In this document: positions 54,899 through 64,000 of the stretch, piece after piece
Numbering within the stretch: the stretch's first letter is position 1
Layout of the letters: each line of letters opens with the position of its first letter
Assembly (NCBI GenBank): GCA_965203455.1
Contig: CBDBCV010000010.1
Location: 99,425 to 163,424, forward strand
Direction: 5' to 3'
DNA from: Alphaproteobacteria bacterium
Lineage (GTDB): Bacteria; Pseudomonadota; Alphaproteobacteria; MPNO01
DNA: 64,000 nt
Made by a program: the position numbers and the translations under genes
Notes under the pieces: model-generated
What the model was told of the DNA's origin: nothing
The model's input: only the letters and a program-made list of their open reading frames with translations
The model's database searches: none

Positions 54899-55070
54899 TC
54901 GATATTCCCGAGGGTCGGGGGCTTTCTTTCGACTCCGAAGCCGGCCCCTAAGTAAGCGTCTGGCGTGACCGCCCTTGTGGCGAGACGGCTTGGAGCCGCA
55001 GTCTGTGGTGAGGTTCCAGAGGTCGATAGTGTCCATTATCGGCTAATGGACACTATCTTAGGGGGCTGCG

Positions 55071-55418
55071 GTGCCACGTCGGGTACGCCGGTTCTGGTCG
55101 GACGACGAGAAGCGCCGGATCGTGGCGCAGAGCTACGCTCCCGGTGTCTCGGTGTCGGTTGTGGCGCGCCGCTATGACGTCAACGCCAACCTGATCTTCA
55201 CCTGGCGGCGCGATCCCCGTTACAGGCCGGCGGCCGATGCCGGGGAGGCGCCGTCCTTCCTGCCGGTGGAGGTGGTGCCCGATGCGCCGCCGTTGGAGCC
55301 GGCCGCGGCATCGGACGGTCGGATCGAGATCGCGTTGTCGAACGGCCACCGGGTGAGCGCGTTCGGGTCGTTCGACGCGGACGCGCTGTGCCGGGTGGTG
55401 CGGGCGCTTGGCGGATGA
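55071..55418 (+). CDS. tnpA: IS66 TnpA (HTH)
   Basis: [42 protein letters not shown]. Confidence 0.9.
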
Positions 55419-55762
55419 TCCCGGTTCCCTCCTCGACCCGGGTATGGCTGGCCTGCGGCGTGACCGACATGCGCAAGGGGTTCCCCGGTCTCGCGGCGCA
55501 GGCGGAGCGGGTATTGAAGGCGGATCCGCATTGCGGCCATCTCTTCATCTACCGCGGCCGCCGGGGCGACCTGATCAAGATGATCTGGTGGGACGGCCAG
55601 GGTGCGTGCCTGTTCTCGAAGCGTCTGGAGCGCGGCCGCTTCGTGTGGCCGTCGGCATCGGAAGGGAAGGTGTCGGTGACGCCGGCGCAGCTGTCGATGC
55701 TGCTTGAGGGGATCGACTGGCGGGCGCCGGTTCGCACCTGGAGACCGCTGGCCGCGGGCTGA
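55415..55762 (+). CDS. tnpB: IS66 TnpB accessory protein
   Basis: [42 protein letters not shown]. Confidence 0.95.
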
Positions 55763-55836
55763 TTCACCGTTTATAAACAATGGGTTGACTGTCATTCGGG
55801 CTTCCCTTTGTCGGCCCCTTCGGGTAGGATGCGGCC

Positions 55837-58800
55837 ATGCTCGAAGCGGCCCATTCCCTGCCCGACGACATCGCCGCGTTGAAGGCGATGGTGCTGGCCT
55901 CGCGGGCCGAACTGGCGGCACGGGACGCCGAGCTGCGCAACCGCGATCTGTTGATCGAGAAGCTCAGGCACCAGCTTGCGGGTCTGCGGCGGCAGCGCTT
56001 CGGCGTCACCTCGGAGGCCCTCGACCAGCTTGAGCTCGGGCTGGAGGACGAGGAGATCGCGCGGGCGGCCGAGGCGCCGACCGAGCCGACGCCCGCCACG
56101 AAGAAGCAGCCGAAGCGCCGTCCCCTGCCGGACCACCTGCCGCGCGAGGAGACGGTTCTCGCGCCGGGCGAGCGCTGCGCGGACTGCGGCGGCCGTCTCA
56201 AGCGGCTCGGCGAGGATGTGACGGAGGAGCTGGAGTACATCCCCGGCCGCTTCGTGGTGAAGCGCATCGTCCGTCCGCGCCTGGCCTGCGGCGGCTGCGA
56301 GAAGTTCCACCAGGCGCCGCTGCCGCCGCGACCGATCGAGCGCGGCCGACCGGGCCCCGGCCTTCTGGCGCATGTGCTGGTCTCGAAGTATTGCGATCAC
56401 CGTGTGTCCTGAAGCACCGCCATGAAAGGAGGTGCGCAACTGCAAGAGAGATGAGGGTAGGCCCCTCGGGGTCGACGATCAGGCGTCGGTCTCAAACCAC
56501 CACGAGCTGCTGTCGTAAAGAGCGATGGTGGTGAGCGTCGTGGAAACGGCGGGACGACGATCTCGTCAGGTGAGGTCCGGGGAGACGAGCGAAAGCGAAC
56601 CGCCGATGAACTGCCGAAAGCGTATGGTCGATGTCAGAACCGGGGGTGGTGGTCACTCCGGGACAAGCATGGGCGGAGTCCTGGAGTCCGGCCCACGCGG
56701 CATCCGGCTCGAAGGCGGCGTGAACCCGGAACAGGCTTTCTTGCGGAACAGGAGAACCTGTCGTCCCGATGCCAAGGGAGACGGCCAACCGGGCAGCCCC
56801 CGGAAGGCTCAGAGTACCGATGCGGGGCACAGGGGCAGAACAGCCCGTAGTAGGGATGAAGGCGCTGTAATGGCGCTGGACCGAAGGGGCTGTGGTGTTC
56901 AGCCGCTGCCGTCGGCCAACTGGTGACAGGAGGAGCCGGATGACAGGGGCAAAGCCGTTCCCGATAGCAAAGAGGGAAGTCTGGGAAGCCTTCAAGCATG
57001 TGAAGGCAAACCGGGGAGCGGCTGGAGTAGATGGGCAGACGGTCGAGAGTCTGGAGGAACGGCTTGGTCCGGAACTCTACAAGCTCTGGAATCGCATGTC
57101 CTCAGGCAGCTATATGCCGCCTCCGGTTCGCAGGGTGAACATCCCCAAGGAGGGCGGCGGGAAGCGCCCGTTGGGCATACCGACGGTCACGGACCGCATC
57201 GCTCAGGAGGTTGTTCGCCGACATCTGGAGCCCTTGTTGGAACCGATTTTCCATGAGGACTCATACGGATATCGGCCGAAGCGATCCGCCATTGACGCCA
57301 TCCGGACAGCGCGTCGGCGATGCTGGCGCTACGACTGGGTGCTGGACATGGACATCAAGGGGTTCTTCGACAACATCGACCACGAGTTGCTGCTGAAGGC
57401 CGTTCGTCACCATACGGACTGCCGGTGGGTGCTGCTCTATGTCGAGCGCTGGTTGAAGGCTCCCGTGATCGAGGAGGACGGCACCGTTGTCGCACGGGAC
57501 AGGGGCACGCCACAGGGCGGGGTAATTTCGCCAGTATTGTCCAACCTGTTCCTGCACTATGCGTTCGATCAATGGATGAAAAGGTCGATGCCGCATGTTC
57601 CGTTCGAACGGTATGCGGACGATATAATCTGCCATTGTCGAACGGAGGAGGCGGCAAAGACCCTCTGGCGGCGGGTTGCGGACCGATTGGCCGAGTGCGG
57701 CCTGGAGGTCCATCCGCAGAAGACCAAGGTGGTCTACTGCAAGGATACCAACCGCAAGGCGGACTACCCGACGGTCGCGTTCGACTTCCTGGGCTACCGT
57801 TTCCAGCCAAGGTTCGCGGCGTGGCGCGGCGGGTTGTTCGGGGTCTCGTTCCTTCCGGCTGCCAGCCCGACTGCGCTCAAGGCGTTTCGGCGCCGCGTGC
57901 GACAGTGGCGTTTGCAACGGCGTAGCGACAAGGCACTGCTTGACCTTGCCCGCATGTTTCATCGCGAAATTGCAGGGTGGATCGGCTACTTCGGCGCATT
58001 CTACAAGTCGGCGCTCTATCCGACCCTTCGTCTGATAGACGCCCACTTGCAGCGATGGGCAATGCGGAAGTTCAAACGCTTCCGACAACGACCGCGTCAG
58101 GCTCGTCTCTGGCTTGCCAGAATCGCGAAAGCGGAGCCGTGGCGGTTCGCCCATTGGACCCTTGTGCACGGGCAGGGCCGGACGCTGGGAGCCGTATGAG
58201 CTGAGAGGTTCACGTACGGTTCTGGGAGCGCGTGGGGGTGAGATTCCCCCGCGCGACTCGCTTGCCGCTCTACCGCCAGTCCCGCATCTTCGCCCGCGAC
58301 GGCGTCGAGCTCGACCGCTCGACGCTCGCCGGCTGGGTCGGCAAGGCGACGGCGCTGCTGGAGCCCCTGGCCGATGCGATCGGGCGCCATGTGCTGGAAG
58401 GACAAGCCCTGTTCGCCGACGACACCCCGGTCAAGCTGCTGGCGCCGGGAACCGGCAAAACGGCGACCGGCCGGGCCTGGACCTACGTGCGGGACGAGCG
58501 GCCCTGGGCTGGCGAGGCGCCGCCGGCGGCCTGGTACCGCTTCTCGGCCGACCGCAAGGCGGCGCATCCGAAGGCGCATCTTGAAGGCTTCGCCGGCTGG
58601 ATGCACTCGGACGGCTATGCCGGGTTCGGTGCGCTGGCGCGCGCCGGGCCGGTCCGCGAGGTGGCCTGTCTGGCGCATGTGCGACGCAAGTTCTTCGACG
58701 TCCATGCCGCCCAGGGCTCGGCGATCGCCGCCGAGGCGCTGGAACGGATCGCCGCCCTCTACGCTATCGAGAAGGAGGCCCGCGGGCAGCCGCCCGAGAA

Positions 58801-59233
58801 CCGCGCGGCCATCCGCCAGGCCAAGGCCGCGCCGTGCCTCGACGAGCTGGAGCGGTGGCTGCAATCGCAGCTGCCCAGAATCTCCGCCAAGACCCCGCTG
58901 GCAGCGGCGATCCGTCATGCCCTGACCCGGATGAAGCGCCTTCGACCCTATCTCGAGCACGGCTTCCTCGAGATCGACAACAACCCCGCCGAACGCGCAA
59001 TGAGGCCGATCGCGCTCGGCCGCAAGAACTATCTCTTCATGGGCTCGGCCAGCGGCGGCAGGGCCGCCGCCATCGCCTACACCCTGATCGAGACCGCCAG
59101 GCTCAACGATGTCGATCCGCAGGCCTGGCTTGCTCAGGTCCTCGAACGCATCCCCGACTACAGGATCAACCGCATCGACGATCTGCTGCCGTGGAACACC
59201 GCGCCCGCAGAAGATCGGGAAGCCGCCGACTGA
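55837..59233 (+). CDS. tnpC: IS66 transposase TnpC split by the intron (exon 1 55837-56401, exon 2 58263-59233)
   Basis: Joined exons total 1536 nt (511 aa) and read KYCDH|LPLYRQS; CADC...CGGC zinc motif; ADDTPV, SDGY, DNNPAERAMR. Confidence 0.9.
56402..58262 (+). mobile_element. Group II intron, RmInt1-like (bacterial class D), 1861 nt
   Basis: 5' GTGTG; domain V GAGCCGTATGAG...GTTCACGTACGGTTC (58189-58222); domain VI with bulged A58256; RT ORF; removal restores the tnpC frame. Confidence 0.93.
56940..58199 (+). CDS. ltrA: Group II intron reverse transcriptase/maturase (no C-terminal endonuclease domain)
   Basis: 419 aa; GAAGVDG, RPLGIPTVTDRIAQ, SYGYRP, DIKGFFD, GTPQGGVISP, RYADD, FDFLGY, domain X GWIGYF. 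Confidence 0.95.
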   Translation: MTGAKPFPIAKREVWEAFKHVKANRGAAGVDGQTVESLEERLGPELYKLWNRMSSGSYMPPPVRRVNIPKEGGGKRPLGIPTVTDRIAQEVVRRHLEPLLEPIFHEDSYGYRPKRSAIDAIRTARRRCWRYDWVLDMDIKGFFDNIDHELLLKAVRHHTDCRWVLLYVERWLKAPVIEEDGTVVARDRGTPQGGVISPVLSNLFLHYAFDQWMKRSMPHVPFERYADDIICHCRTEEAAKTLWRRVADRLAECGLEVHPQKTKVVYCKDTNRKADYPTVAFDFLGYRFQPRFAAWRGGLFGVSFLPAASPTALKAFRRRVRQWRLQRRSDKALLDLARMFHREIAGWIGYFGAFYKSALYPTLRLIDAHLQRWAMRKFKRFRQRPRQARLWLARIAKAEPWRFAHWTLVHGQGRTLGAV

Positions 59234-59264
59234 CCACGCAGGGGCGGTCACGCCGGACGCTTAC

Positions 59265-60825
59265 GGTCCATCAGCTGGCGGCGGTGAACGAGGACAAGCG
59301 TGTTCGTCCCGCGCGCGGCGATGACCGAGGCCGCGACCACCGTCTTGCCGAAGCCGGTCGCCGCCGCGAGCACGCCGGTCTCGTGCGCCAGCAGCGCGGC
59401 AGCGGCGGATTTCTGCTCGGAGGTCAACGCGCCCAGAAAGGCGGTCTCCACCGGTCGACCCGGATTGCGCTCGTCGCGGACGTCGAGCCCGACACCGTGT
59501 TCCGCCAGCATCGACCCCATCTCGTCGCGGCAGCCGCGCGGCAGGGCCACGTGGTTCGGGAGCAGTTCGGCGCAGGCGACGATGCGCGGAATGCCCCAGG
59601 TCGACCGCCGCATCGCCTGGGCGGCATGGAAGGCCGGGTTCCGGAACGTAGCCAGACGCACCAGGCGGTCGACCAGACCCGGCGGCAGGCCGGCGCGCGG
59701 AACGTAAAGCCGGTCCGCCAGCACGGCCCCGATCCGCTCCGGCAGCGGTCCGGAGAGGGGCGGCAGGGCTCGGCGTCGCGACGGCGGCACGGCCCAAGGC
59801 TCTTCGCCACCGTCCGTTTCGGGGTCTTCCAGCGGGAGGCGCAGGCCGACGATCCGGCCCCGAAGGGCGGCCTCGCCGACGATCGCTTCCGCTTCCGCCT
59901 CCGGCAGGCGCCGCAGCGACGACAGATACGCCACTGGTCGGCATGGGGTTCGAGGTTCCCGTCGAGGAACACGCTGTTGCCGTCCGCGCGCGGCCGGCCC
60001 TGGAGGGGCAGCGCGATCAGGTTGCCGAACCCGCCCTCGGGCACCGTGTCCTGGCTCGGGAAGAACCGGTCGTAGGAACCGAACCCGATGTCCGGATGGC
60101 GGCGCCATCGCCTCGGTCAGCAGATGCGAGCCCAGCCGCCGCGCCCGCGCCGCGGACACCGGTTCGGCGAAGAAGAGCCAGACATGGCCGCCATGGCCCG
60201 AACGCGAACGCTCCAGCGCCGCCGGCACCCCCTTCGACCGGCAGGCGTCCAAGAAGGCCCCGGCGTCGCGGCGCCACGCCGCCTTGTCGAAGTCGGCCGC
60301 GAGGAACCGGCAGGTCCCGTCCGGAAGCAGGGGATAGACGCCGACGGTATGGCGGCCGCGCAGGTGGGCGGCGATTTCGGCGTTGGTCACCGGCAGGAAG
60401 GCCCGGTTGGGGCAGGCGCCGCAACGCACGCGCGGCTTGGCGCACAAGCCGGGCTTCCACTCGTTGGCGCAGGCCGGCGCGTAGCCGGCCTTGCCCGTCC
60501 GGGCATTCTCCCAGCGCCGCGGGAACACGTCCTCCCGGCCGGCAAACAGCGCGCGGAACAGCGCAATCTTCATATCCGGAGGCGAGCGGTCCGTCACCGG
60601 CATCCCGGCCGGATCGCGGTACGGCACGGCCGGGCGGGCCCGTTCCAGTTCCGCCAGCCGGGTCTCAAGGGACGCCCGCTCCTTGGCAAGGCCGGCAAGC
60701 CGGACGCGAATCCGCGCGGCCTCATCGGCCTCGTCCCAGCCGGTCGGGACGCTCCCGCCGCCGCCCGCCATGCCAGGCAGGTCGTGCTGCGCGGACGAAT
60801 CCGGAGCCGGCCGGCCGGCCGTCAT
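59265..60825 (-). pseudogene. AEP primase (TOTE-type) / SF2 helicase fusion, doubly frameshifted and truncated by IS66
   Basis: LFAGREDVF, four-Cys cluster, AADFD, ERSRSGHGGHVW, (shifted frame) YDRFFPSQD...GFGNLIALPLQG, Walker A AATGFGKT, LVLVHRRQL, then the IS66 end. Confidence 0.8.
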
Positions 60826-61688
60826 CCCGCCCCTTCTCCCGGTCCCGCAGGCCCCGCCTCCAGGCGGGCGGCAAGCCTGTCGGCACGCGGATTGCCCATG
60901 TCGCACAGGACGGCGACCGCGACTGGCGCGAATTCCGGGCGGCGCATCGCGCAGCGCCCGAGAGACACGATCGCCGCGTCGTCGCCGAGCGCGCCAAGCG
61001 CCTCGACGAGCGCGGTCGAGGGCGCGACCGTCAATTCGGCGATCGGCACGTCCCGGCCCGAGGCATCGCCCCGATGCGCCAGCGCGGCCGCCGCCAGGCG
61101 GATCGGAAGATCCCGGTCGGACAGCCCCTCCCGGAGCCGGGGCGCCGGTACCTTCGCTCCGGGCGCAAGGTCGAAGGCCGCCCGGCGCAACGCCGGGTCG
61201 TCATGGTCGGGAAAATCCGCGACGAAGGCGGCAGGAAGGACCACCCTGGCATCGGCGGTGGACCGCAGCGCAATCGGCAGCAGCGAGGCAGGCAGGCCCG
61301 CTGAAAGAACGATCCGCCTCAGCGCGGCCCGCGTCCCGGAACCCTCCAGCCGCGCCAGCGTCTCCAGCATGGCGCACTGTTCCCGCAGCGGCCGGTGGAT
61401 GCCGAAACCGTGAAATCGGCGCCAAAGCGCCTCCAGCGCCGGAACCGCCGCCGGCAGCGGCCGCGCGACGACCTCTGCGCACAGCGCGTCGATCTCCAAC
61501 GGCCCCGCCTCCGCAAACCGTCCGGCCAGTTCGTCGTCGCCGAGCGAGGCCGGCGCGGGTAGCCCCGGCCGGACCGGATGTTCCCGCCGGCTGCGGACAT
61601 CGGCCCGGCCGCGGCCGTCGAACAGATCCGGCTGGCGATCCGCCTCCAGGCAGTCCCCGGGCGAGGGGTCGGGCACAGGAACGGGCAT
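60822..61688 (-). CDS. HEAT-like repeat protein (start uncertain; frame open to 61844)
   Basis: DHDDPALRRAAFDLA, SDRDLPIRLAAAALAHRGD, LVEALGALGDD repeats; its TGA overlaps the ATG of the primase-helicase gene. Confidence 0.6.
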   Translation of the reverse strand: MPVPVPDPSPGDCLEADRQPDLFDGRGRADVRSRREHPVRPGLPAPASLGDDELAGRFAEAGPLEIDALCAEVVARPLPAAVPALEALWRRFHGFGIHRPLREQCAMLETLARLEGSGTRAALRRIVLSAGLPASLLPIALRSTADARVVLPAAFVADFPDHDDPALRRAAFDLAPGAKVPAPRLREGLSDRDLPIRLAAAALAHRGDASGRDVPIAELTVAPSTALVEALGALGDDAAIVSLGRCAMRRPEFAPVAVAVLCDMGNPRADRLAARLEAGPAGPGEGAG

Positions 61689-61913
61689 CGGCGAAGCATA
61701 TCCGGGAACCGCCGTTCGCCGCCACGACAACCTGACCGCCATGCGGACCACAACGCGCGTGAAGGTCGGGCAGGTCTCGAAACGGGCAATGCCGGTGTTG
61801 CACCCTTCAAGGCCGTCGGCGTCGTCTTTCGCGGCGGACTTCAATCTCCGCTGGCGCCGGCGGGGTCGGCGGCATAGGGTTCCGCCATGGCGATGTCGGA
61901 GGTTCGGGGTTCC

Positions 61914-62669
61914 ATGAAGAGGCTGGTCGCAGCATTCCTCCTTACCCTGCTGTCCTGTGCACCCGCGTTCGGCGGTGACGCGGCGCCGGAGAGGCTGCGC
62001 ATCGGCGTCGACCCCACCTACCCGCCGTTCAGCGAGGTCGACGATGCGGGCCGGCTCGCCGGCTTCGACATCGACATCGCCCGTGCGCTCTGCGCCCGTC
62101 TGGAAGCCGAATGCGCCTTCGTCCGCCGGGACTGGGAAGAGTTGATCCCGGCTCTGCGCGCCGGCCGCTTCGACGCCATCGTCTCCAGCATGTCGATCAC
62201 CGACAGGCGTCGGCGTCTGGTAGCTTTCACCGACCGCTACTACAGCAACGTCGTCCGCTTCGTGACCCGCAAGGACTCCGGTTTCGATCCCGCCGCGCCG
62301 GCGGGCGGGACCGTCGGCGCGGCGCGCGCCACCGTCGCCTCGGACTGGCTGGAAGCCAACCTGTCGAAGGTTGCCGCCATCCGGCTCTACGCCGGTCAGG
62401 ACGCGCTCATGCGGGATCTTGTCGATGGCCGGCTGGATGCGGTGTTCGGCGACAGCCTCGGCTTCTGGAGCTGGCTCGGGACCCCCGAAGGCGCCGGCTT
62501 CGCTTTCGTGGGCGACGGCTACCGTCTCGACGAGGGCATCGGCATCGCGGTGCGCAAGGAAGACGGCGCGCTTCGCAACCGGCTGAACCGGGCGCTTCGG
62601 TCGATCCTCGCCGACGGCGCCTACCGCAGGATCAACGCCCGGTATTTCCCGTTCGACATCTACCGGTAG
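61914..62669 (+). CDS. Polar amino-acid ABC substrate-binding protein (family 3), orphan
   Basis: Signal peptide, YPPFS, GFDIDIARALC, SMSITDRR, DLVDGRLDA, GIAVRK. Confidence 0.9.
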   Translation: MKRLVAAFLLTLLSCAPAFGGDAAPERLRIGVDPTYPPFSEVDDAGRLAGFDIDIARALCARLEAECAFVRRDWEELIPALRAGRFDAIVSSMSITDRRRRLVAFTDRYYSNVVRFVTRKDSGFDPAAPAGGTVGAARATVASDWLEANLSKVAAIRLYAGQDALMRDLVDGRLDAVFGDSLGFWSWLGTPEGAGFAFVGDGYRLDEGIGIAVRKEDGALRNRLNRALRSILADGAYRRINARYFPFDIYR

Positions 62670-62731
62670 ACGGCCGGCACAGGAGGTCCCGGGACGCCTG
62701 ACGGCCGGGCCGCTGGCGGTGTCGCTGGCGG

Positions 62732-62760
62732 TTGACGGGGTAGCGACCGGTCGCTATCTT
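62732..62760 (+). promoter_or_regulatory. TA promoter with palindromic operator
   Basis: TTGACG-N17-TATCTT; perfect 16-bp palindrome TAGCGACCGGTCGCTA (62741-62756) over the spacer and -10. Confidence 0.7.
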
Positions 62761-62766
62761 TCTGGC

Positions 62767-63060
62767 ATGAGATCGGTCGGGATCAAGGTTCTGAACAGCA
62801 AGCTGAGCGAATATGTCCGGCTTGCGGCGTCCGGCGAAACGATTCTCGTGACCGACCGCGATCAGGTCGTGGCGGAACTCGGCCCGCTGAGGGAATCCCG
62901 GAGCCCGATCCTCGCCGACGCCTTCCTGGCCGACGCGGTGCGCTCCGGCGTTCTCGCGCCGCCGGCGCTGTCCGGCTCGGGGATGCCGCCGAAGCCGCCG
63001 CCGGTCGCCATGTTGGACGATGTTCTGGCGGAGCTGGACGAAAGCCGGCGCGACCGGTGA
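62767..63060 (+). CDS. Phd/YefM-family antitoxin
   Basis: VGIKVLNSKLSEYVRLAASGETILVTDRDQVVAEL. Confidence 0.88.
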   Translation: MRSVGIKVLNSKLSEYVRLAASGETILVTDRDQVVAELGPLRESRSPILADAFLADAVRSGVLAPPALSGSGMPPKPPPVAMLDDVLAELDESRRDR

Positions 63061-63458
63061 TCTATCTCGACACGTCGGTCGCGCTTGCGCATCTCCTCAC
63101 CGAGGATCGACAGCCGCCGGTCTCGCTGTGGGACGAGACCCTGGTCTCCAGCCGGCTGCTGGAATACGAGATATGGACTGCGCTGCACGGGCGTGGGCTT
63201 GCCGAGTCGCATGGCGAGGCGGCCCGCGGGCTGCTCGGGCGGGTCGCGCTGCTGGAGCTGAGCCGGCGGGTTCTGGCGCGGGCGCTGGAGGCGTTTCCCG
63301 GCCCCGGTCCGTTGCGGACCCTCGACGCCCTGCATCTGGCGTCGTGCGCGTATCTGGCCGAGAACGGTCAGGAGGTGACGCTCGCGAGCCACGACCAGCG
63401 CATGACCGCCGTCGCCCGCGCCATGGGTATTCCGCTCTTCGATCGGGAAGGATCATGA
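63057..63458 (+). CDS. PIN-domain toxin (VapC-like)
   Basis: IYLDTSVAL, LEYE, LRTLDALHLAS, SHDQRM; GTGA overlap with the antitoxin. Confidence 0.9.
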   Translation: MIYLDTSVALAHLLTEDRQPPVSLWDETLVSSRLLEYEIWTALHGRGLAESHGEAARGLLGRVALLELSRRVLARALEAFPGPGPLRTLDALHLASCAYLAENGQEVTLASHDQRMTAVARAMGIPLFDREGS

Positions 63459-63535
63459 GTCGCGCGGCCGGCGATTTTTTGCCGATCATCCCCCTGGCGC
63501 GGCATGCCGTATGGCGCGACAATCTGGGTGAGAGC

Positions 63536-64000
63536 TGTGCGTCAATCAGGATGAGATTCCCGGCGGCAGCGGCGAGTTGATGATTGCCGCGCGGGGGGTG
63601 GATTGCAAGCGGTTTCCGGTTTTGATTGTCGCGGCGCGACAAGCAGTGTTTTCGGGAAGGGTTTTGATTGTCGCGGCAGGCCGTCGGGTCGGAGAAGAGA
63701 CGGCCCGCGGAGACGATCCCCGCGGGCCCTGATTGTCGTGGCCGCTCTACCTGAGCAGGCGGCGGCTCAGTCCTTGGTGTTTTTCTTGGTTGCGTAGCTT
63801 GGCGGCCGGCCGGCCTTTCGCTTGCCTCTGTCGAGAGCGGCGCGGCGGCGGTAGCTCTCGATGTTCATCTCGAGGATGGTGGCGTGGTGGACGAGGCGGT
63901 CGACGGCAGCCACCGCGGTTGTTTCGTCCGGGAACACCTTTCCCCACTCGCCGAAGGGCTGGTTTGCGGTGATGAGCAGGGATCGCCGCTCGTAGCGCGC
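63536..64000 (-). mobile_element. Right end of an IS21-family element (continues beyond window)
   Basis: istB 3' end; repeated GGTTTTGATTGTCGCGGC (63618-63635, 63660-63677) plus variants; probable TG terminus at 63536. Confidence 0.75.
63767..64000 (-). CDS. istB: IS21 helper ATPase IstB, C-terminal part (not in ORF track)
   Basis: Manual translation: ARYERRSLLITANQPFGEWGKVFPDETTAVAAVDRLVHHATILEMNIESYRRR...TKD*. Confidence 0.92.
   Translation of the reverse strand, partial: ARYERRSLLITANQPFGEWGKVFPDETTAVAAVDRLVHHATILEMNIESYRRRAALDRGKRKAGRPPSYATKKNTKD

What the first reader, a model, noticed from the sequence alone, without database searches (positions are those of the whole stretch)
59265..61844. 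HEAT-repeat protein translationally coupled to an AEP primase-SF2 helicase fusion: candidate undescribed conflict/defence module
Seen: ATGA overlap at 60822-60825 joins a HEAT-like repeat ORF to a protein with an N-terminal coiled coil, a four-Cys cluster, AEP DxD and SxxGxGxH motifs and a helicase Walker A. Known: such AEP-helicase fusions are assigned to predicted TOTE conflict systems, usually with TPR/OB partners. Inference: a HEAT sensor or scaffold plus primase-helicase effector variant, sitting among TA modules and IS elements like a defence island. This copy is broken, so intact homologues are the target.
Basis: partly seen in the sequence, partly recalled or inferred. Interest (0 to 1): 0.62.

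Follow-up and report, generated by a model that had tools for sequence, protein, structure and literature searches.

The report
Dead IS-excision enhancer operon with HEAT partner
The large gene is a broken relative of the E. coli IS-excision enhancer (a known polymerase-helicase that removes jumping genes), cut by a jumping gene that has about 85 copies here; the new part is its small HEAT-repeat partner, which carries a sliding-clamp docking motif.

Summary
A 288-aa HEAT-repeat gene (60822-61688, minus strand) overlaps by ATGA a primase-polymerase/SF2-helicase gene (59265-60825).

The large gene is not an undescribed effector. Its intact 833-aa form in a sister genome is 45% identical over 805 residues to E. 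coli O157 IEE, the characterised IS-excision enhancer. IEE itself scores 1.7e-98 on Pfam AEP-TOTE.

The window copy is dead. It has two compensating frameshifts and is truncated after helicase motif I by an IS66 element with no target duplication. The missing 313 residues are nowhere in the genome.

The HEAT gene belongs to a real, uncharacterised family: an N-terminal Q-x-D-L-F motif (mostly QLDLF, the beta-clamp-binding consensus) in a disordered tail, then a confident HEAT solenoid.

The pairing is clade-limited:
- HEAT precedes an IEE gene in 8 of 73 species loci, and 6 of those 8 keep the 4-bp overlap.
- These pairs form one clade in both gene trees.
- Most HEAT genes are solo and under purifying selection, in genomes without IEE.
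- None of 80 other IEE loci has a HEAT gene.

This genome has about 85 near-identical copies of the disrupting IS66. The sister genome with intact IEE has one.

Verdict: a decayed variant of a known system with a plausible new clamp-tethering accessory.

The parts
60822..61688 (-). HEAT-repeat gene, 288 aa plus stop. It has a disordered N-terminal tail (residues 1-44) and a HEAT solenoid (45-280). This copy carries lineage-specific damaging changes: L160P, L215P, R262C and a 1-codon deletion at residue 198.
   Evidence: 83 homologues; AF2 model; Foldseek; polarised substitutions and dN/dS 1.24 against the sister copy
61620..61634 (-). Codons for Q19-P-D-L-F23. This is the family's invariant N-terminal Q-x-D-L-F motif and matches the beta-sliding-clamp-binding consensus QL[SD]LF.
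   Evidence: D21, L22 and F23 are invariant and Q19 is at least 90% conserved in 71 sequences. 88 of 98 representatives at 50% identity have the motif, 45 of them as QLDLF. It lies in a stretch with pLDDT below 50 on either side.
60822..60825 (-). ATGA stop/start overlap joining HEAT to the IEE-like gene
   Evidence: Sequence. The same 4-bp overlap (ATGA or GTGA) is present in 6 of 8 intact pairs.
59265..60825 (-). Remnant of an IEE-family gene: N-terminal helix, Cys4 cluster, AEP (PrimPol) domain, linker, and SF2 helicase motif I only. It corresponds to residues 1-520 of the 833-aa intact protein of the sister genome.
   Evidence: PF22548 at 2.1e-63; 97.4% DNA identity to L003 up to base 59265; 45% identity of the intact form to E. 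coli IEE
59930..60104 (-). Segment between a +1 indel (~60103) and a -1 indel (~59930). 57 codons are out of frame, including AEP motif C (GSYDRFF) and GGFGNLIALPLQ.
   Evidence: Alignment to L003; alternative-frame hit to PF22548 positions 157-222; translations. Not verifiable with reads.
54952..59264 (+). IS66-family element (tnpA, tnpB, tnpC) that truncates the IEE gene. Inverted repeats are at 54952-54977 and 59239-59264 (GTAAGCG... ends). The flanks GCCCCTAA and GGTCCATC are not a target duplication.
   Evidence: Other copies in the genome have clean 8-bp duplications.
56402..58252 (+). Group II intron inside the IS66 tnpC gene. The RT/maturase ORF is at 56892-58199.
   Evidence: RVT_1 at 5.7e-44 and GIIM at 1.3e-14. 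Intron-less IS66 copies join query positions 1450 and 3302.
61887..62669 (+). Divergent neighbour: periplasmic solute-binding protein (SBP_bac_3). It is not part of the module and marks the upstream end of the operon.
   Evidence: same neighbour in L003
62719..63458 (+). Phd/YefM-like antitoxin plus PIN toxin pair flanking the locus
   Evidence: same pair in L003/L004

Best explanation
This is the wreck of a two-gene operon.

Shown:
- Gene 2 is a member of the IEE family: an AEP PrimPol of the Z1568-like / Pfam AEP-TOTE type fused to an XPB-like SF2 ATPase.
- In E. coli this enzyme is a Mn-dependent, error-prone DNA polymerase with microhomology-mediated end-joining activity. It promotes transposase-dependent excision of copy-out-paste-in insertion sequences.
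- Gene 1 is a small HEAT-solenoid protein. Its disordered N-terminal tail carries an invariant Q-x-D-L-F peptide.
- In the window the operon is dead. IEE is frameshifted and then cut after helicase motif I by an IS66 insertion followed by an IS-associated deletion. HEAT has collected helix-breaking substitutions.

Inferred:
- The peptide docks the HEAT protein on the beta sliding clamp.
- In the clade where the two genes are translationally coupled, the HEAT solenoid acts as an adaptor. It brings or holds IEE, which has no clamp motif of its own, at clamp-loaded primer-template junctions such as the copy-out replication intermediate of an IS.
- Outside that clade the HEAT protein does a clamp-linked job of its own.
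- Loss of IEE in this lineage is at least coincident with, and may have permitted, a burst of the same IS66 to about 85 copies.
For: IEE identity:
- The intact sister protein is 45% identical to ECs_1305 over 805 aa, collinear from the N-terminal helix to the C-terminus.
- Both hit PF22548 at about 1e-97.
- The PDB neighbours are XPB-type helicases and CRISPR-associated PrimPol.
- IEE biochemistry comes from PMC9943667 and the model from bioRxiv 10.1101/2023.06.07.543989.

Broken state:
-.
- The C-terminal 313 aa are absent from the whole genome.

HEAT family and motif:
-.
- The motif is retained in genomes that lack any AEP-TOTE domain, so its ligand is not IEE.
- IEE proteins themselves have no such motif.

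Coupling:
- HEAT is followed by IEE in 8 loci, with the 4-bp overlap kept in 6.
- All linked HEATs fall in one 32-row clade with support 99.
- The seven linked IEEs placed in the tree (L011 was left out) fall in one 10-row clade with support 100. The internal groupings match the HEAT tree.
- An IEE fragment sits directly after a solo HEAT gene in L017.

IS burst:
- This genome has 87 left and 85 right IS66 ends at 99% identity or more, 386 kb in all.
- The sister genome with intact IEE has a single copy, by the same search.
Against: - E. coli IEE works without any HEAT partner. Its upstream gene ECs_1304 is unrelated.
- None of 80 other IEE loci, including 3 inside the HEAT-linked IEE clade, has a HEAT gene.
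- Most HEAT genes are solo. The pairing could therefore be one historical juxtaposition that was then inherited.
- Q-x-[DS]-L-F occurs 232 times by chance in the six-frame ORFs of this genome. The motif argument rests on conservation and position only. No binding was tested and no complex was modelled.
- The IS66-burst contrast is one pair of genomes. IS66 has not been shown to be an IEE substrate: it is not among the families listed in the review (0 mentions).
- The two frameshifts could be assembly errors (could not settle this).
Confidence: 0.6

Rival explanations
1. The HEAT protein is the sensor or scaffold and the primase-helicase is the effector of an anti-phage or anti-plasmid 'TOTE'-type defence system located in a defence island.
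For: The Pfam name of the AEP domain is 'TOTE conflict system'. The locus lies among a PIN/Phd pair, integrases, IS elements and an HSDR_N gene in the relative. HEAT evolves fast between the two closest strains, with dN/dS 1.24, which could be read as diversifying selection. Other IEE homologues sit next to TA genes.
Against: The only experimentally studied member of this exact architecture (IEE, 45% identical) acts on insertion sequences. PADLOC has no system-level hit. Solo HEAT genes lie among metabolic genes in stable synteny and under purifying selection. 10 of the 14 polarisable HEAT changes are on the window branch and hit near-invariant residues, which points to decay rather than adaptation. 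No TPR, OB or nuclease partner was found.
Confidence: 0.15
2. The adjacency is historical rather than functional. The HEAT protein is an independent clamp-associated housekeeping or accessory factor. An IEE gene landed just downstream of it once in one lineage and the pair has since travelled or been inherited together. IEE needs no partner.
For: The linkage is confined to one clade of each tree. HEAT persists and is constrained without IEE. IEE is widespread and mobile without HEAT: it matches 121 plasmid records against none for HEAT, and 80 metagenome loci lack HEAT. E. coli IEE is autonomous in vitro.
Against: The 4-bp start/stop overlap is kept while HEAT diverges to about 50% identity and IEE to about 70%, across alpha- and gammaproteobacterial genomes. 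Tree topologies are congruent. In the window both genes decay together.
Confidence: 0.2
3. The HEAT protein is a brake on IEE, for example by sequestering it or competing with it or with transposases for the clamp. On this reading its loss of constraint here preceded or accompanied the deregulation.
For: HEAT shows 18 non-synonymous against 4 synonymous differences, while the IEE remnant shows 10 against 14 (Fisher p=0.007). This suggests HEAT lost constraint earlier than IEE. Upstream position with translational coupling is typical of regulator/antitoxin-like partners.
Against: There is no direct evidence. The numbers are small. Solo HEAT genes in IEE-free genomes cannot be IEE inhibitors.
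Confidence: 0.05

Closest known systems
IS-excision enhancer IEE of E. coli O157:H7 (ECs_1305 / Z1568; Kusumoto 2011 as cited in the review; Calvo 2023, PMC9943667; Chandler 2023, bioRxiv 10.1101/2023.06.07.543989)
   Same: Same full-length architecture and order: N-terminal helix, Cys4 cluster, AEP motifs A/B/C, linker, SF2 motifs I-VI. 45% identity over 805 aa. Same Pfam domain hits. Also on mobile DNA and next to an IS66-family element.
   Different: The E. coli gene has no HEAT partner; its upstream gene is an unrelated 187-aa ORF. The window copy is a pseudogene. No activity has been measured for this clade, and IS66 is not a documented IEE substrate.
Pfam PF22548 AEP-TOTE / 'TOTE conflict systems'. 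The expansion TPR, OB, TBP, Effector is taken only from earlier notes of this scan. I could not find the source paper.
   Same: The AEP domain matches the model at 1e-97 when intact.
   Different: No TPR, OB or TBP gene is present in the locus of the window or of the intact relative. The partner is a HEAT solenoid. IEE itself belongs to this Pfam family, so the name does not establish a defence role.
Beta-clamp-binding proteins with a QL[SD]LF-type motif in a flexible tail (Pol III alpha, Pol II, Pol IV, Hda and MutS are examples). This is established knowledge from Dalrymple et al. 2001, recalled and not retrieved here.
   Same: A pentapeptide matching the consensus (QLDLF in 45 of 88 representatives; QPDLF here). 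It is terminal, lies in a disordered region, and is the only invariant feature of that region.
   Different: No known clamp partner has this HEAT domain. Binding is untested.
Generic bacterial HEAT/alphaRep-like solenoids (E. coli YibA 1oyz, CpcE/F lyases, designed alphaRep)
   Same: The fold matches with TM about 0.5-0.65. Pfam HEAT_2 hits occur in homologues.
   Different: The matches are weak (E about 2e-3, 12-18% identity) and carry no functional information. There are no lyase or hydroxylase motifs. HEAT-like-repeat DNA glycosylases (AlkD) were not among the 50 matches listed.

Membership tests
IEE (IS-excision enhancer) family | Collinear full-length homology to ECs_1305 | tested here: met
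   The intact sister protein is 45% identical to IEE over 805 of 833 aa, E=0. The window remnant is 97.4% identical in DNA to the sister gene.
IEE (IS-excision enhancer) family | AEP catalytic motifs A (hDhD), B (sxH) and C (hD) in one reading frame | tested here: not met
   In the window copy motifs A (DFD) and B (SRSGHGGH) are in frame, but motif C (YDRFF) is out of frame between the two indels. All three are in frame in the sister gene.
IEE (IS-excision enhancer) family | Complete SF2 ATPase: motif I lysine, DExH, arginine finger | tested here: not met
   The window copy ends 24 residues after GFGKT at the IS66 junction. DECH and later motifs are missing and are absent from the genome. They are present in the sister gene.
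IEE (IS-excision enhancer) family | Transposase-dependent stimulation of IS excision; polymerase and MMEJ activity | not testable with these tools
   This needs a genetic or biochemical assay. There is only an n=1 correlation: about 85 IS66 copies here against 1 in the sister genome with the intact gene.
TOTE conflict system (as named by Pfam PF22548) | AEP domain matching PF22548 | tested here: met
   2.1e-63 plus 4.3e-23 on the two frames of the window copy; 1.2e-96 on the intact sister protein
TOTE conflict system (as named by Pfam PF22548) | Associated TPR, OB and TBP-type partner genes. This definition is known to me only from earlier notes of this scan. | tested here: not met
   Pfam calls on all neighbours of the intact locus show HEAT upstream and an HSDR_N gene plus two ORFs without Pfam hits downstream.
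HEAT-repeat proteins | Tandem helix-turn-helix repeats forming an alpha-solenoid | tested here: met
   AF2 model with mean pLDDT 84 and 15 helices in pairs. Foldseek top hits are all HEAT/alphaRep/ARM. PF13646 hits occur on many homologues. The window protein itself has no Pfam hit at E<=0.1.
Beta-clamp-binding proteins | Consensus QL[SD]LF-like peptide, conserved, in an exposed or disordered segment | tested here: met
Beta-clamp-binding proteins | Physical binding to the hydrophobic cleft of DnaN | not testable with these tools
   The structure tool folds single chains only, and no binding data exist.
Known anti-phage defence systems (PADLOC-DB) | Significant match of the components to a defence-system model | tested here: inconclusive
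   The AEP matches 'PrimPol, CAS-associated' models (2.5e-56). The helicase matches are marginal (HamB, PbeA, GajB, E above 1e-3). HEAT scores 0.03 to HEAT-ARM_XIII.

The most novel reading that the evidence does not exclude
The Q-x-D-L-F/HEAT proteins are an unrecognised class of beta-clamp adaptors. In one clade the adaptor was recruited to load or hold the IS-excision enhancer on clamp-bound replication intermediates of transposing insertion sequences. This would give the missing physical link between IEE, replication and transposition. In this genome the death of that module removed the brake and allowed a single IS66 to expand from 1 to about 85 copies.
Probability: 0.2. Interest if true: 0.75.

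Novelty: new variant of a known kind. Interest (0 to 1): 0.45.

Why it matters
IEE is the only known dedicated bacterial enzyme that removes insertion sequences. How it is coupled to the replicative 'copy-out' step of transposition is unresolved in the papers read here.

A conserved, translationally coupled partner with a textbook clamp-docking peptide gives a concrete, cheap hypothesis to test for that coupling.

The HEAT family, about a hundred 50%-identity clusters of this architecture, is a candidate new clamp client in its own right.

The sister-genome contrast (intact IEE with one IS66 copy, dead IEE with about 85 copies, 6% of the genome) is a natural experiment on whether IEE restrains IS load. 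It is also a warning that the Pfam label 'TOTE conflict system' covers an enzyme whose demonstrated role is anti-transposon rather than anti-phage.

Tried and rejected
- Literature on 'TOTE': four full-text searches and two targeted papers gave nothing. The meaning of the acronym rests only on earlier notes of this scan.
- Read support for the two frameshifts: the public runs that hold this stretch carry the sister strain (intact gene, about 2% divergent), not the window's strain. Real frameshift and assembly error cannot be told apart.
- A home-made GC3 gene caller for the loci was unreliable: it missed the HEAT gene in L006. It was dropped in favour of precomputed gene calls and homology clustering.
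- The idea that the HEAT domain is an AlkD-like HEAT-like-repeat DNA glycosylase was rejected. There is no Pfam hit and only generic solenoids appear in the 50 matches listed.
- Search for a common upstream partner of IEE in 80 metagenome loci: none was found, only scattered TA genes.
- HEAT on plasmids: none.
- Search for the reciprocal IS66 junction or the missing 3' third of IEE in the genome: not present.
- IEE remnants next to solo HEAT genes: found only in L017.
Full report
**Observation**

On the minus strand a 340-codon ORF (60822-61844) ends in TGA. That stop overlaps the ATG of a 525-codon ORF running to 59251 (ATGA at 60822-60825). The second ORF hits Pfam AEP-TOTE (PF22548, 2.1e-63, profile positions 2-157) and ResIII/DEAD at its end. 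A second frame supplies AEP-TOTE positions 157-222 (4.3e-23). The Cys4 cluster, DFD, SRSGHGGH and GFGKT motifs are all present. The HEAT gene most likely starts at the ATG at 61688, giving 288 aa.

**What the large gene is**

A sister genome (locus L003/L006) is 97.4% identical in DNA over window 59265-63509. It has the same neighbours and an intact operon: HEAT (289 aa) overlapping by ATGA an 833-aa protein with AEP-TOTE plus DEAD/ResIII.

- The two proteins align over 805 residues at 45% identity, E=0. The alignment covers the N-terminal helix, the Cys cluster, AEP motifs A, B and C and every helicase motif.
- IEE itself scores 1.7e-98 on PF22548.
- PDB sequence neighbours are XPB-type helicases and the CRISPR-associated PrimPol.

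So the 'AEP primase-SF2 helicase fusion' is an IEE-family enzyme.

IEE is experimentally characterised:
- It is required, together with transposase, for high-frequency excision of IS629 and other IS that form circles.
- It is a Mn-dependent, error-prone DNA polymerase with microhomology-mediated end joining that needs both domains.
- It has DNA-dependent ATPase activity but no detectable unwinding activity (PMC9943667; bioRxiv 10.1101/2023.06.07.543989).

**State of the window copy**

Relative to the sister gene there is a +1 indel near 60103 and a -1 indel near 59930. These put 57 codons, including motif C, out of frame. Those 56 aligned codons carry no substitutions, so the indels are either very recent or assembly errors. 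The public runs I could find contain the sister strain, so this stays open.

Independently, homology stops at 59265, which is the outer end of an IS66 element.
- Its inverted repeats lie at 54952-54977 and 59239-59264.
- Its flanks (GCCCCTAA and GGTCCATC) are not a duplication, whereas many other copies in the genome have clean 8-bp duplications.
- The last 313 residues of IEE are nowhere in the 6.2-Mb genome.
- The three genes that follow IEE in the sister locus are missing from the window.
- ABC-transporter genes lie beyond the IS.

The gene was therefore cut by an IS66 insertion followed by an IS-associated deletion or rearrangement.

**The HEAT gene**

It has 83 homologues in the clustered protein database, 32-94% identical and about 270-310 aa, many with Pfam HEAT_2. 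It occurs in 73 species-level genome loci, mostly alphaproteobacterial MAGs plus some gammaproteobacteria.

An AF2 model built on 71 sequences is confident for residues 45-280 (pLDDT above 90, 15 helices) and disordered for 1-44. Foldseek against the PDB returns only generic HEAT/alphaRep/YibA/CpcE-F solenoids at E of about 2e-3.

The one conserved feature of the tail is Q19-x-D21-L22-F23. D, L and F are invariant and Q is at least 90% conserved across 71 sequences. An exhaustive profile search found 297 proteins at E<=1e-30. Of 98 representatives with the family's size, 88 have the motif within the first residues, and 45 have it as QLDLF.

From established knowledge, QL[SD]LF is the consensus beta-clamp-binding peptide. 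Such peptides typically sit in flexible termini. The motif occurs by chance elsewhere in the genome (232 six-frame hits), so the argument rests on conservation and position. IEE proteins themselves contain no such motif.

**Are the two genes partners?**

Forward direction, starting from HEAT:
- Of the 73 HEAT loci, 8 have the IEE gene immediately downstream.
- 6 of these 8 keep the 4-bp ATGA/GTGA overlap.
- The remaining loci have unrelated neighbours, for example a Rieske oxygenase, a P450, a glucokinase-like gene and membrane proteins.
- 18 of 23 HEAT-only genomes have no AEP-TOTE domain anywhere.

Reverse direction, starting from IEE:
- None of 80 metagenome loci encoding IEE homologues (51-72% identical) has a HEAT gene, by an HMM search that had a positive control.
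- Their upstream genes are heterogeneous and include TA genes.
- IEE homologues are on 121 plasmids and HEAT is on none.

Trees:
- All IEE-linked HEAT genes lie in one 32-row clade (SH-aLRT 99). They are interleaved with solo genes, which requires at least 4 changes of state. The other 39-row clade is never linked.
- The linked IEEs lie in one 10-row clade (support 100), with the same internal groupings as the HEAT tree.
- One solo HEAT gene (L017) is followed directly by a fragment of IEE, so at least some solo genes arose by loss of IEE.

Selection:
- Solo and linked HEAT genes are both under purifying selection, with dN/dS 0.17-0.36.

The pairing is thus a real, old, co-inherited operon of one clade. 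It is not a general property of either family.

**Decay of HEAT in the window**

Against the sister copy, HEAT shows 18 non-synonymous and 4 synonymous codon differences (dN/dS 1.24). The IEE remnant shows 10 and 14 (Fisher p=0.007). Ten of the 14 polarisable changes are on the window branch. They include L160P, L215P, R262C, V107M and a codon deletion at otherwise (near-)invariant positions. The window's HEAT gene is probably also non-functional.

**Genome context**

The disrupting IS66 is present in this genome as 87 left and 85 right ends at 99% identity or more. That is 386 kb, about 6% of the genome.
- 13 complete copies carry the group II intron.
- At least 18 copies are intron-less.
- Many copies are nested or lack target duplications.

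With the same search tool, this genome returns 41 full 100%-identical matches from the 40 candidates the tool scores. The sister genome, which has the intact HEAT-IEE operon, returns exactly one copy, and that copy has no intron.

By inference, 85 insertions have roughly a 3% chance of hitting a given 2.5-kb gene. The hit on IEE may be chance, or loss of IEE may have preceded and favoured the burst. This is a single comparison, and IS66 is not a documented IEE substrate.

**Mechanism and rivals**

The best-supported reading is an IEE operon variant. In it, a clamp-docking HEAT adaptor accompanies the PrimPol-helicase. Shown: the identity of both proteins, the conserved coupling and the motif. 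Inferred: clamp binding, the adaptor role and the link to the IS burst.

Three rival readings are scored in the Rival explanations section of this report:
- an anti-phage TOTE-like sensor/effector pair;
- a non-functional historical adjacency;
- HEAT as an inhibitor of IEE.

**Novelty**

The large gene is known. I did not check that note. I class this as a new variant of a known kind, represented in this window only by a dead copy.

Noticed in passing
window 54952-59264 and the whole genome (G000): One IS66 element has expanded massively: 87 left and 85 right ends at 99% identity or more, 386 kb, about 6% of the genome. The 97%-identical sister genome (G024) has a single intron-less copy.
   Followed up: partly
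window 56402-58252; genome-wide: The group II intron sits at the same tnpC site in 13 complete IS66 copies, while at least 18 copies lack it. About 17 further intron copies lie outside this IS. The intron is therefore spreading together with, and independently of, the IS.
   Followed up: partly
G000, flanks of IS66 copies: Many copies have perfect 8-bp target duplications, often ending in CATC (for example CGACCATC, GTTCCATC, GGTGCATC), which suggests a target preference. Many other copies have mismatched flanks or are nested in one another, which implies frequent IS-IS recombination.
   Followed up: no
L017:10817-11107: A 97-codon open stretch directly after a solo HEAT gene matches IEE profile positions 164-211 (E=6e-7). 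It is a relic of a deleted IEE gene.
   Followed up: partly
L019, L020, L021 upstream of HEAT; L003:1-2896: Two or three consecutive tyrosine-recombinase ORFs (three in L019 and L020, two in L021, resembling a recombinase-in-trio arrangement) lie immediately upstream of the HEAT gene in these loci. A trio also lies 7 kb upstream in the sister locus. The HEAT(-IEE) unit may ride on or next to such elements.
   Followed up: no
L005 vs L006 and L031 vs L032: Between close relatives, DNA homology starts a few bases before the HEAT start and ends at the HEAT stop, with unrelated flanks. The HEAT gene alone behaves like a relocatable cassette.
   Followed up: no
L003:13438-17111: Downstream of the intact IEE the sister genome has a 100-aa ORF, a 499-aa protein with no Pfam hit and an HSDR_N-domain protein. 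All three are absent from the window.
   Followed up: partly
L163 (E. coli Sakai 1,378,953-1,384,474): The E. coli IEE gene also has an IS66-family element (ISEc8) about 720 bp downstream, inserted in an IS30 remnant.
   Followed up: no
G000, multicopy ORFs: Two multicopy ORFs that look like transposases carry clamp-motif-like peptides...HQQLSLFHGFYD in at least 8 copies of a 432-aa ORF, and ...ECQLDLFADRTS in 472-aa ORFs.
   Followed up: no
window 63510-63997: This stretch matches L003:17067-17558 (IstB/IS21-like element) at 89% identity, but on the opposite side of the operon compared with the sister genome. This is a further rearrangement around the locus.
   Followed up: no
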